Shown piece after piece: positions 39,841 to 42,379 of a DNA stretch of 64,000 nucleotides (its first letter is position 1; the number at the start of each line of letters is the position of its first letter). The translations under genes were made by a program, and so were the position numbers. The notes under the pieces were generated by a model. The model worked only from the letters and a program-made list of their open reading frames with translations. It ran no database searches and had not been told where the DNA came from. Location: NCBI RefSeq assembly GCF_054482525.1, contig NZ_CM137006.1. One strand, given 5' to 3'.

Positions 39841-40812
39841 ATGGAAACGAAAAAAAATAATAGCGAATACATTCCTGAGTTTGATAAATCCTTTCGCCAC
39901 CCGCGCTACTGGGGAGCATGGCTGGGCGTAGCAGCGATGGCGGGTATCGCTTTAACGCCGCCAAAGTTTCGCGACCCCATTCTGGCACGGCTGGGACGTT
40001 TTGCCGGACGCCTGGGAAAAAGCTCACGCCGTCGTGCGTTAATCAATTTGTCGCTCTGCTTTCCAGAACGTAGTGAAGCTGAACGCGAAGCGATTGTTGA
40101 TGAGATGTTTGCCACCGCGCCGCAAGCGATGGCAATGATGGCTGAGTTGGCAATACGCGGGCCGGAGAAAATTCAGCCGCGCGTTGACTGGCAAGGGCTG
40201 GAGATTATCGAAGAGATGCGACGTAATAACGAGAAAGTGATCTTTCTGGTGCCGCACGGTTGGGCCGTCGATATTCCTGCCATGCTGATGGCCTCGCAAG
40301 GGCAGAAAATGGCAGCGATGTTCCATAATCAGGGCAACCCGGTTTTTGATTATGTCTGGAACACGGTGCGTCGTCGTTTTGGCGGTCGTCTGCATGCGAG
40401 AAATGATGGTATTAAACCATTCATCCAGTCGGTACGTCAGGGCTACTGGGGATATTATTTACCCGATCAGGATCATGGCCCAGAGCACAGCGAATTTGTT
40501 GATTTCTTTGCCACCTATAAAGCGACGTTGCCCGCGATTGGTCGTTTGATGAAAGTGTGTCGTGCGCGCGTTGTACCGCTGTTTCCGATTTATGATGGCA
40601 AGACGCATCGCCTGACGATTCAGGTGCGCCCACCGATGGATGATCTGTTAGAGGCGGATGACCATACGATTGCGCGGCGGATGAATGAAGAAGTCGAGAT
40701 TTTTGTTGGTCCGCGACCAGAACAATACACCTGGATATTAAAATTGCTGAAAACTCGCAAACCGGGCGAAATCCAACCGTACAAGCGCAAAGATCTTTAT
40801 CCCATCAAATAA
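39841..40812 (+). CDS. lpxM: lipid A myristoyltransferase LpxM (MsbB)
   Basis: 323-aa [27 protein letters not shown]. Confidence 0.95.
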
Positions 40813-40840
40813 AAAAAGCCTCTCGCGAGGAGAGGCTTCC
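40811..40840. terminator. hairpin terminator between lpxM and the REP/IS (probably bidirectional for lpxM and pykA in the uninterrupted locus)
   Basis: stem GCCTCTC/GAGAGGC with an A7 run on the 5' side. Confidence 0.5.
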
Positions 40841-41449
40841 GCCGTGTGATAAGTTCAAGTTTGCTTCAGAAGATTCGAAATCTGTTGAACTATCATTGAA
40901 CTGTAGGCCGGATGAGGCGTTTTGAACTGCACCCCAAATGTTGGACATAATCTGACATCTGAAGGTGCAGTTTATGAAACATTCATTTGAAGTAAAACTT
41001 GCCGCTGTAAATCACTACCTGGCTGGTCATGCAGGCATCATTTCTACGGCAAAACTCTTTCAACTTTCTCACACCAGCCTCTCACACTGGATTAATCTTT
41101 TTCTTCTTCACGGTCCTCGGGCACTGGATTGCAGACACAAGCGTAGCTATTCTCCTGAAGATAAACTTTGCGTGGTTCTTTATGCTCTCGGGCATTCTGA
41201 GTCTCTACCCCGGGTAGCTGCCCGGTTTAACATTCCCAGCCACAACACGGTTAAAAACTGGATAAAAGGCTACCGCAAATCTGGTAATGAGGCCTTTATC
41301 AGGCGCAGGAAGGAGAAAAGCATGACCCGTTCTGATGATACCCATGAAAACGAGGCAAACATGACGCCGGAAGAGATGAAGAATGAGCTGCGTTATCTTC
41401 GCGCAGAAAATGCATATCTGAAAGCCATGCAGGAGCATCTCCTGGAAAA

Positions 41450-42354
<905 letters not shown>

Positions 42355-42379
42355 GTTTTCGCCGCATCCGGCAACGTAC

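What the first reader, a model, noticed from the sequence alone, without database searches (positions are those of the whole stretch)
41447..41453. Canonical -1 programmed frameshift site (A AAA AAG) joining orfA and orfB
The heptamer A-AAA-AAG sits in the orfA frame, and the -1 frame is open from here to the orfB stop at 42322, so an OrfAB fusion transposase is predicted by ribosomal slippage, as in IS3 and IS911.
Basis: partly seen in the sequence, partly recalled or inferred. Interest (0 to 1): 0.35.

Follow-up and report, generated by a model that had tools for sequence, protein, structure and literature searches.

The report
IS1397 transposase programmed -1 frameshift site
This is the already-published ribosomal frameshift signal of the E. 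coli insertion sequence IS1397, which lets the ribosome slip back one base to fuse two overlapping genes into the active transposase; it is real but ordinary.

Summary
A_AAA_AAG lies at 41447-41453 in the orfA frame, and the -1 frame is open from 41387 to the TAA at 42320-42322. The element is one intact 1432-bp copy of IS1397 (IS3 family, IS150 group; 40923-42354), inserted with a 4-bp duplication in the loop of a REP hairpin between lpxM and pykA. RefSeq annotates its CDS as a joined 'programmed frameshift' gene. The 449-aa fusion matches the IS3 transposase model end to end and has an intact DDE triad. The heptamer has a GGAG 12 nt upstream and a 38-nt hairpin 3 nt downstream. Sharma et al. 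2014 (Tables S4, S8) tabulate the same SD and hairpin for IS1397 and call -1 frameshifting 'safely inferred'. Two small additions came out. First, in about 56 diverged relatives the slip site sits at one conserved position (…ENAYLKK|) followed by a covarying 66-nt hairpin. IS1397 has lost both and carries a rebuilt signal 27 nt downstream. Second, the commonest database protein has Pro161, an effect of where the junction is placed; slippage on the heptamer predicts Ala161. Frameshifting was not measured here.

The parts
40923..42354 (+). Complete IS1397 element, 1432 bp, with TG...CA ends
   Evidence: 100% identical over 1432 bp to annotated IS1397 copies. Delimited by the inverted repeats and the empty site. 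It is the only copy in the window.
40923..40947 (+). Left terminal inverted repeat (IRL)
   Evidence: 25-nt arms, 84% complementary to 42330-42354.
42330..42354 (+). Right terminal inverted repeat (IRR)
40919..40922 (.). Left copy of the 4-bp target-site duplication (GTTT; the parse TTTT is equally possible)
   Evidence: The empty site reads GAGGC-GTTTT-CGCC; the occupied site reads GTTT-IS-GTTTT.
42355..42358 (.). Right copy of the target-site duplication
40907..40919 (.). Left arm of the REP/PU hairpin split by the insertion
   Evidence: GCCGGATGAGGCG pairs with CGCCGCATCCGGC at 42360-42372. The uninterrupted hairpin folds at -25.2 kcal/mol in the empty site.
42360..42372 (.). Right arm of the REP/PU hairpin
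40974..41495 (+). orfA (173 aa; HTH DNA-binding domains and a leucine-rich C-terminus), the zero-frame product
   Evidence: Pfam HTH_28 and others. The exact protein is seen on at least 1000 contigs. PGAP uses the same start in L083.
41431..41435 (+). [quoted passage not shown]
   Evidence: meets the criterion of PMC4066793. SD is scored in 100% of IS1397 copies in Table S8. Relatives have GGAG at the same 12-nt spacing from their own site.
41447..41453 (+). Slippery heptamer A_AAA_AAG: tandem -1 slippage of the two Lys-tRNAs
   Evidence: Identical in 8 sampled E. coli copies.
41457..41494 (+). 38-nt hairpin (3-nt spacer; CAGG/CCUG plus CUGGA/UCCGG), candidate downstream stimulator; its 3' base includes the first two bases of the orfA stop codon
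   Evidence: -12.4 kcal/mol, z = -3.43. Pair probabilities 0.94 or higher, top 3.7% of 38-nt windows in the IS. Same size, spacer and first stem as Table S8. The natural variant G41487A converts U.G to U-A.
41453..42322 (+). orfB reading frame as read after the slip (HTH_21 plus DDE integrase core; D295, D355, E391, K398 of the fusion)
41420..41426 (+). Position homologous to the slip site of the relatives; in IS1397 it reads G_AAA_GCC (Leu-Lys-Ala) and is not slippery
   Evidence: Protein and DNA alignments.
41468..41474 (+). Second A-run, G_AAA_AAA (followed by C): a weaker alternative slip site that gives a fusion of the same length
   Evidence: It is used as the junction in a single database record (P0136).

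Best explanation
The heptamer is the programmed -1 ribosomal frameshift site of insertion sequence IS1397. Shown: most ribosomes would read orfA to its stop at 41493-41495 and make the 173-aa DNA-binding protein OrfA. Inferred: a minority slip back one base when codons AAA (P site) and AAG (A site) are being decoded. Both Lys-tRNAs re-pair on A-AAA-AA, and the next codon read is GCG (Ala161). Translation then continues in the orfB frame to 42322 and gives the 449-aa OrfAB transposase, which joins the OrfA HTH domains to the DDE catalytic core. Also inferred: slippage is probably promoted by the SD-like GGAG 12 nt upstream, pairing with 16S rRNA, and by the 38-nt hairpin that starts 3 nt downstream. 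Because orfB has no start codon of its own near its 5' end, frameshift efficiency sets the transposase-to-OrfA ratio and hence the transposition rate. The sequence anatomy, homology and conservation are shown here. The slippage event, its frequency and the roles of the stimulators are inferred by analogy with IS911 and IS150 and were not measured.
For: Anatomy: the heptamer is in frame, it is the only canonical one in the overlap, and the -1 frame is open. Identity: the element is IS1397, with a full copy in 1707 of 5426 complete E. coli genomes, up to 40 matching places per genome (full or partial copies) and copies 100% identical to this one, which implies a working transposase. Product: the fusion is the deposited IS1397 transposase P0121, matches NF033516 at 387 bits against a cutoff of 160 over positions 1-369 of 369 across the junction, and has an intact DDE triad plus K. 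Natural single-ORF homologues in Pseudomonas are collinear with the predicted fusion without gaps. Comparative: 60 of 74 related loci at 40-57% identity keep orfB in the -1 frame with an in-frame A_AAA_AAG or A_AAA_AAA. The Leu codon before the motif ends in A in at least 90% of sequences (column 22 of alignment A1 is nearly invariant A), which is a synonymous-site constraint. Stimulators: GGAG at 12 nt and the hairpin at z = -3.43, both tabulated for IS1397 in Sharma et al. 2014, which calls PRF 'safely inferred'. A_AAA_AAG is among the three most efficient heptamers in E. coli (PMC4066793).
Against: No experiment on IS1397 frameshifting could be read. The primary IS1397 papers are not held, and Sharma et al. 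say 'inferred', not demonstrated. The hairpin is modest: -12.4 kcal/mol and 0.33 kcal/mol per nt, against an IS3-family mean of 0.45. Its 3-nt spacer is shorter than the 6 nt tabulated for the other IS3-family clusters in Table S8. IS1397 copies differ by only about 1%, so neither covariation nor synonymous-site conservation can be tested within IS1397 (aln_div 0.02). IS1397 lacks the covarying hairpin of its relatives. Profile scores do not distinguish this junction from the second A-run.
Confidence: 0.92

Rival explanations
1. Transcriptional slippage: RNA polymerase stutters on the run of seven A (41446-41452) and adds one A to a fraction of the mRNAs, so standard translation yields the same-length OrfAB.
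For: The run is A7. Transcriptional realignment is used by some IS elements (PMC5009743). The product would have the same length and nearly the same sequence.
Against: The bacterial slippage described in PMC5009743 concerns runs of 9 A or T. Relatives conserve the in-frame heptamer, not the run length (mostly A6 after TTA or CTA). The motif is flanked by an SD-like element and a hairpin at spacings typical of ribosomal frameshifting.
Confidence: 0.03
2. The productive shift occurs mainly at the second A-run (G_AAA_AAA_C, 41468-41475), giving ...EKKRQELEKK|TKVIRS..., and the first heptamer is incidental.
For: This junction gives a fusion of identical length. One database record uses it (P0136). 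It scores equally against the IS3 profile (386.0 against 387.2 bits). An AGGAG lies 6 nt upstream (41458-41462, read from the sequence).
Against: It is not a canonical X_XXY_YYZ heptamer, because the P-site tRNA would re-pair on GAA. A_AAA tetramers rank below A_AAG and need a strong stimulator (PMC4066793). The site lies inside the loop of the 38-nt hairpin, so no structure is positioned downstream of it. The first site is the one with SD and hairpin at frameshift-typical spacing.
Confidence: 0.04
3. No recoding: the orfA/orfB split is a frameshift mutation in a decaying element, and no transposase is made.
For: Some diverged E. coli copies are annotated as 'frameshifted' pseudogenes because of indels elsewhere. 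One copy has an internal deletion (L035).
Against: This copy is 100% identical to copies in other strains, and a full copy is present in 1707 genomes with up to 40 matching places per genome. The same -1 arrangement with a slippery motif is kept in distant relatives across phyla. The DDE triad is intact.
Confidence: 0.01

Closest known systems
IS1397 (IS3 family, IS150 group) of Escherichia coli, as annotated in RefSeq and catalogued as cluster A_AAA_AAG_5 in Sharma et al. 2014 (PMC4066793)
   Same: It is this element. It is 100% identical over 1432 bp to annotated copies. It has the same heptamer, SD and 38-nt hairpin with 3-nt spacer and 4-bp first stem. It shows the same preference for REP/PU targets.
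   Different: Nothing in the DNA. The insertion site (lpxM-pykA REP) is occupied in only a minority of genomes; the empty site is present in 4941 of 5426. The commonest database protein differs at residue 161 (Pro instead of Ala) only because of where annotators place the junction.
IS911 and IS150 -1 frameshift signals
   Same: An A_AAA_AAG heptamer joins orfA to orfB to give the OrfAB transposase, with a downstream stem-loop. Like IS911, there is also an upstream SD-like stimulator.
   Different: The IS1397 hairpin is smaller: 38 nt with a 3-nt spacer, against 57 nt with 6 nt for IS911 and 48 nt with 6 nt for IS150 in Table S8. Frameshifting is demonstrated for IS911 and IS150 but only inferred for IS1397.
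The clade of IS1397 relatives found here (Bacillaceae, Paenibacillus, Pseudomonas, Halomonas, Rhizobium and others; L008-L082)
   Same: The orfA/orfB architecture, fusion length and collinearity are the same. The motif class is the same (A_AAA_AAG or A_AAA_AAA), and GGAG lies 12 nt upstream of the motif.
   Different: In 54 of 56 distinct relatives the slip site is at one alignment column or the adjacent one (...ENAYLKK|), followed after 6 nt by a hairpin of about 66 nt whose 11-bp closing stem covaries. IS1397 has a non-slippery sequence there, pairs only 3 of 11 positions of that stem in register, and carries its heptamer 27 nt downstream, inside the former loop, with a new shorter hairpin.

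Membership tests
IS3 family insertion sequence | Two partly overlapping ORFs, with orfB in the -1 frame relative to orfA | tested here: met
   orfA codons start at positions 0 mod 3 and orfB codons at 2 mod 3; the overlap is 109 nt.
IS3 family insertion sequence | Transposase with a DD(35)E catalytic triad and K/R seven residues after E | tested here: met
   D295, D355, E391, K398; Pfam rve, rve_2 and rve_3.
IS3 family insertion sequence | The curated family profile is matched above its cutoff | tested here: met
   NF033516 at 387.2 bits against a cutoff of 160, over positions 1-369 of 369.
IS3 family insertion sequence | Terminal inverted repeats ending 5'-TG...CA-3' and a short (3-4 bp) target duplication | tested here: met
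   25-nt inverted repeats TGAACTG...CAGTTCA; 4-bp duplication shown by comparison with the empty site.
IS1397 (the named element) | Near-identity to the reference element over its full length | tested here: met
   100% over 1432 bp to copies annotated 'IS3-like element IS1397 family transposase'.
IS1397 (the named element) | Insertion into the loop of a REP/palindromic unit | tested here: met
   The REP arms flank the element, and the empty site folds as one hairpin. The target preference is reported in PMC1525189.
Programmed -1 ribosomal frameshift signal (criteria of PMC4066793) | An X_XXY_YYZ motif in the zero frame within the overlap | tested here: met
   A_AAA_AAG at 41447-41453; it is the only one.
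Programmed -1 ribosomal frameshift signal (criteria of PMC4066793) | [quoted passage not shown] | tested here: met
   GGAG at 12 nt and AGGA at 13 nt.
Programmed -1 ribosomal frameshift signal (criteria of PMC4066793) | A downstream hairpin starting 4-10 nt after the motif, with a G-C closing pair followed by at least 3 pairs and unfolding energy of at least 7.6 kcal/mol | tested here: met
   Starts at the 4th nt, 38 nt long, C-G closing pair, -12.4 kcal/mol, z = -3.43.
Programmed -1 ribosomal frameshift signal (criteria of PMC4066793) | A trans-frame protein is actually produced at this site | not testable with these tools
   This needs a reporter assay or mass spectrometry. The literature read here calls it 'safely inferred'.
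Frameshift cassette of the IS1397-related clade (defined here) | Slip site at the ...ENAYLKK| codon position | tested here: not met
   IS1397 reads ENAYLKA (CTG AAA GCC) there; its own site is 9 codons downstream.
Frameshift cassette of the IS1397-related clade (defined here) | A hairpin of about 66 nt with a covarying 11-bp closing stem, starting 7 nt after the motif | tested here: not met
   Relatives are 93% paired and 6 of 11 pairs covary. IS1397 pairs 3 of 11 in register.

The most novel reading that the evidence does not exclude
IS1397 shows turnover of a recoding signal. The whole frameshift cassette (GGAG, heptamer and 5' arm of the hairpin) has moved 27 nt (9 codons) downstream within a poorly conserved linker. 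The fusion protein keeps its length, and roughly the same 3' hairpin arm is re-used, offset by 4 nt. More than 50 relatives across Firmicutes and Proteobacteria keep the ancestral position and a covarying 66-nt hairpin. I found no report of this, but I could not read the primary IS1397 papers or ISfinder.
Probability: 0.45. Interest if true: 0.3.

Novelty: already known. Interest (0 to 1): 0.12.

Why it matters
The finding matters mainly as a correct annotation. It shows that orfA and orfB are one functional transposase gene of an active IS, not two genes or a pseudogene. It also shows that the lpxM-pykA intergenic region of this strain carries a REP-targeted IS1397 insertion that about 91% of complete E. 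coli genomes lack. Two by-products have some practical value. First, the commonest RefSeq IS1397 transposase sequence carries Pro161, which no slippage on the heptamer can produce, so anyone looking for the junction peptide should search for Ala161. Second, IS1397 is an outlier in its clade in where the frameshift signal sits. That is a small, testable example of how recoding signals can relocate without changing the protein architecture.

Tried and rejected
1. The primary IS1397 papers (PMC94167, PMC95333, PMC169884) are not held, so any experimental statement about IS1397 frameshifting rests on Sharma et al. 2014 only.

2. tblastn of OrfA against plasmids found nothing between 95% or more (IS1397 itself) and 36% or less. 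Sensitive blastn in E. coli genomes found no intermediate relatives. The 5.8-billion-protein search was saturated by 99-100% identical E. coli variants. The timing of the site relocation, and whether ISKpn1 shares it, could therefore not be determined.

3. Folding the whole 107 nt downstream of the motif gave an unremarkable z of -1.16. A larger 105-nt structure (41461-41565) gave z = -0.32. I rejected both as stimulators in favour of the 38-nt hairpin.

4. I looked by eye for a pseudoknot partner of the hairpin loop (AAAAACGAAAG) in the next ~100 nt and saw no complementary stretch. I did not pursue this further.

5. Scoring the alternative junctions against NF033516 did not discriminate between them.

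6. The Rfam scan of the element found no family.

7. I first suspected that the Ala/Pro161 difference reflected a DNA polymorphism at the last base of the heptamer. I rejected this because all sampled copies have identical DNA there and re-reading base 41454 reproduces the Pro form exactly.

Full report
**Observation.** Bases 41447-41453 are AAAAAAG. orfA (ATG 40974 to TGA 41493-41495, 173 aa) reads …CTG GAA AAA AAG CGC…, so the motif is in A_AAA_AAG register. The -1 frame is open from 41387, just after a TGA at 41384-41386, to TAA 42320-42322. It has no start codon before GTG 41600. This is the only in-frame X_XXY_YYZ heptamer in the 109-nt overlap. The bare heptamer is common: 25 matches in the window against 15.8 expected. 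An in-frame occurrence within the overlap, however, is expected only about 0.7% of the time.

**What the element is.** The segment 40923-42354 is a complete 1432-bp insertion sequence with 25-nt terminal inverted repeats, TGAACTG…CAGTTCA.

- It is 100% identical to copies annotated 'IS3-like element IS1397 family transposase'. A full copy is present in 1707 of 5426 complete E. coli genomes, with up to 40 matching places (full or partial copies) per genome.
- It lies between lpxM (39841-40812) and pykA (minus strand, from 42380).
- The empty site is found in 4941 genomes and reads GCCGGATGAGGC-GTTTT-CGCCGCATCCGGC. The element is therefore in the loop of a REP/PU hairpin (-25.2 kcal/mol) with a 4-bp duplication. 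This is the target reported for IS1397 (PMC1525189).
- It is the only copy in the window.

**The proteins.** Slipping on the heptamer gives a 449-aa fusion.

- The fusion contains HTH_28, HTH_21, rve and rve_2 domains.
- It matches NF033516 (IS3 family transposase) over positions 1-369 of 369 at 387 bits, against a cutoff of 160, straight across the junction.
- Its catalytic residues are D295, D355, E391 and K398.
- The exact sequence is a deposited IS1397 transposase (P0121, 71 contigs).

**Stimulators.** I applied the explicit criteria of Sharma et al. 2014 (PMC4066793).

- A 38-nt hairpin (41457-41494) starts at the fourth nucleotide after the motif. It folds at -12.4 kcal/mol with z = -3.43; 2 of 200 shuffles fold as well. 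Its pair probabilities are 0.94 or higher once upstream sequence is excluded, and it ranks in the top 3.7% of 38-nt windows of the element.
- The 3' base of the hairpin includes the first two bases of the orfA stop codon.
- In diverged E. coli copies, G41487A converts a U·G pair to U-A, and the heptamer and GGAG are unchanged in all 8 copies sampled.
- Sharma et al. list IS1397 as cluster A_AAA_AAG_5: SD in 100% of copies, hairpin in 100%, hairpin 38 nt, spacer 3 nt, first stem 4 bp. They state that -1 PRF 'can be safely inferred'.

The site and both stimulators are therefore already published. Frameshifting itself is inferred, not demonstrated, in what I could read.

**Comparison with relatives.** A scan of one genome per species returned 80 loci encoding relatives at 40-57% identity.

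- Of 74 loci with both parts, 60 have orfB in the -1 frame with an in-frame A_AAA_AAG or A_AAA_AAA.
- The three loci without a canonical heptamer carry A_AAG or T_AAA_AAG at the same place.
- Six Pseudomonas loci encode OrfA and OrfB as one continuous ORF. These are collinear, without gaps, with the predicted IS1397 fusion.
- In the protein alignment, the junction falls in one column or the adjacent one (…ENAYLKK|) in 54 of 56 distinct relatives.
- Those relatives share a hairpin of about 66 nt that starts 7 nt after the motif. Its 11-bp closing stem is 93% paired, against 20-48% when the partner is slid. Six of 11 pairs change on both sides, and 0 of 500 shuffles reach the observed values.
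- GGAG lies 12 nt upstream in 37 of 53 sequences.

**IS1397 is the outlier in this clade.** At the ancestral position it reads CTG AAA GCC (…ENAYLKA), which is not slippery. It pairs only 3 of 11 positions of the family stem in register. Its heptamer lies 27 nt (9 codons) downstream, inside what is the hairpin loop in the relatives. It has its own GGAG at the same 12-nt spacing. Its shorter hairpin has a 3' arm that overlaps the family's 3' arm, shifted by 4 nt, and a new 5' arm. The distance from YLK to the conserved …LR is 25 residues in both, so the protein architecture is unchanged. I could not find intermediate relatives to date this relocation.

**Junction detail.** Among 127 distinct full-length IS1397 transposase entries, about 110 read …EKKPPGAG… and not …EKKAPGAG…. 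The DNA is identical in all sampled copies. Re-reading base 41454, one nucleotide past the heptamer, reproduces the commonest entry P0001 exactly. Any slip within the A-run gives Ala161. Pro161 is therefore an annotation convention. A single record (P0136) places the junction at the second A-run. Profile scores cannot tell the junctions apart.

**Mechanism and rivals.** The best explanation is tandem -1 slippage of two Lys-tRNAs on A_AAA_AAG, helped by the SD-like element and the hairpin. This gives OrfAB at a low ratio to OrfA (confidence 0.92).

- Transcriptional slippage on the A7 run is unlikely. The bacterial slippage described in PMC5009743 concerns runs of 9 A or T, and relatives conserve the in-frame heptamer rather than the run length.
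- The second A-run (G_AAA_AAA_C) is non-canonical and lies inside the hairpin loop, so it is at most a minor contributor.
- Decay into a pseudogene is contradicted by the element's abundance, the identical copies in other strains, and the conserved architecture.

**Verdict.** The feature is an already-known, already-annotated frameshift signal of a known IS, so interest is low. The relocation of the signal relative to its clade and the Pro161 annotation effect are minor additions.

Noticed in passing
41447-41456 (junction); proteins P0001 and P0121: About 110 of 127 distinct database IS1397 transposases have Pro at residue 161. This arises only if base 41454 (C, one nt past the heptamer) is re-read, giving a chimeric C|CG codon. 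Slippage on the heptamer predicts Ala161 (GCG). The DNA is identical in all copies.
   Followed up: yes
41418-41426 compared with 41445-41453; alignment A1, columns 22-28 and 49-55: The IS1397 frameshift heptamer lies 27 nt downstream of the position used by about 54 of 56 distinct relatives. IS1397 also lacks their covarying 66-nt hairpin.
   Followed up: partly
L003, L004, L006, L007 (Pseudomonas asuensis); L043, L046 (P. oryzihabitans, P. rhizoryzae): These relatives encode OrfA and OrfB as a single continuous ORF of about 450-470 aa, with no frameshift needed. They are natural 'pre-fused' transposases.
   Followed up: partly
42290-42354 (IS nt 1368-1432); L090 401-465: A 65-bp fragment 95% identical to the IS1397 right end is the best match in the sampled genomes that lack a full copy (about 1,800 such genomes had some match). 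In K-12 MC4100 it lies between yhhI (ISEc1 transposase) and yhhJ. It may be a solo-end remnant.
   Followed up: partly
L035 (E. coli SCPM-O-B-8794): This IS1397 copy has an internal 193-bp deletion (IS nt 469-661) that removes the whole frameshift region. It is a dead derivative.
   Followed up: partly
41430-41444: A small hairpin, CAGGAG-CAU-CUCCUG (6 bp), ends 2 nt before the heptamer and contains the SD-like GGAG. The natural variant C41441T keeps a G.U pair. Whether it affects frameshifting, for example as an attenuator, is unknown.
   Followed up: no
40896-40903 and 40922-40929: The host sequence just left of the REP (TTGAACTG, also present in the empty site) repeats the first bases of IRL with the preceding T (T-TGAACTG). 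This may be coincidence or related to target recognition.
   Followed up: no
41454-41480: The OrfA tail is internally repetitive (QEHLLEKKR / QELEKKRK). This explains the second A-run at 41469-41474.
   Followed up: no
40812-40846: A GC-rich inverted repeat (GCCTCTC...GAGAGGC) lies directly after the lpxM stop codon. It looks like the lpxM terminator and is upstream of, and unrelated to, the IS.
   Followed up: no
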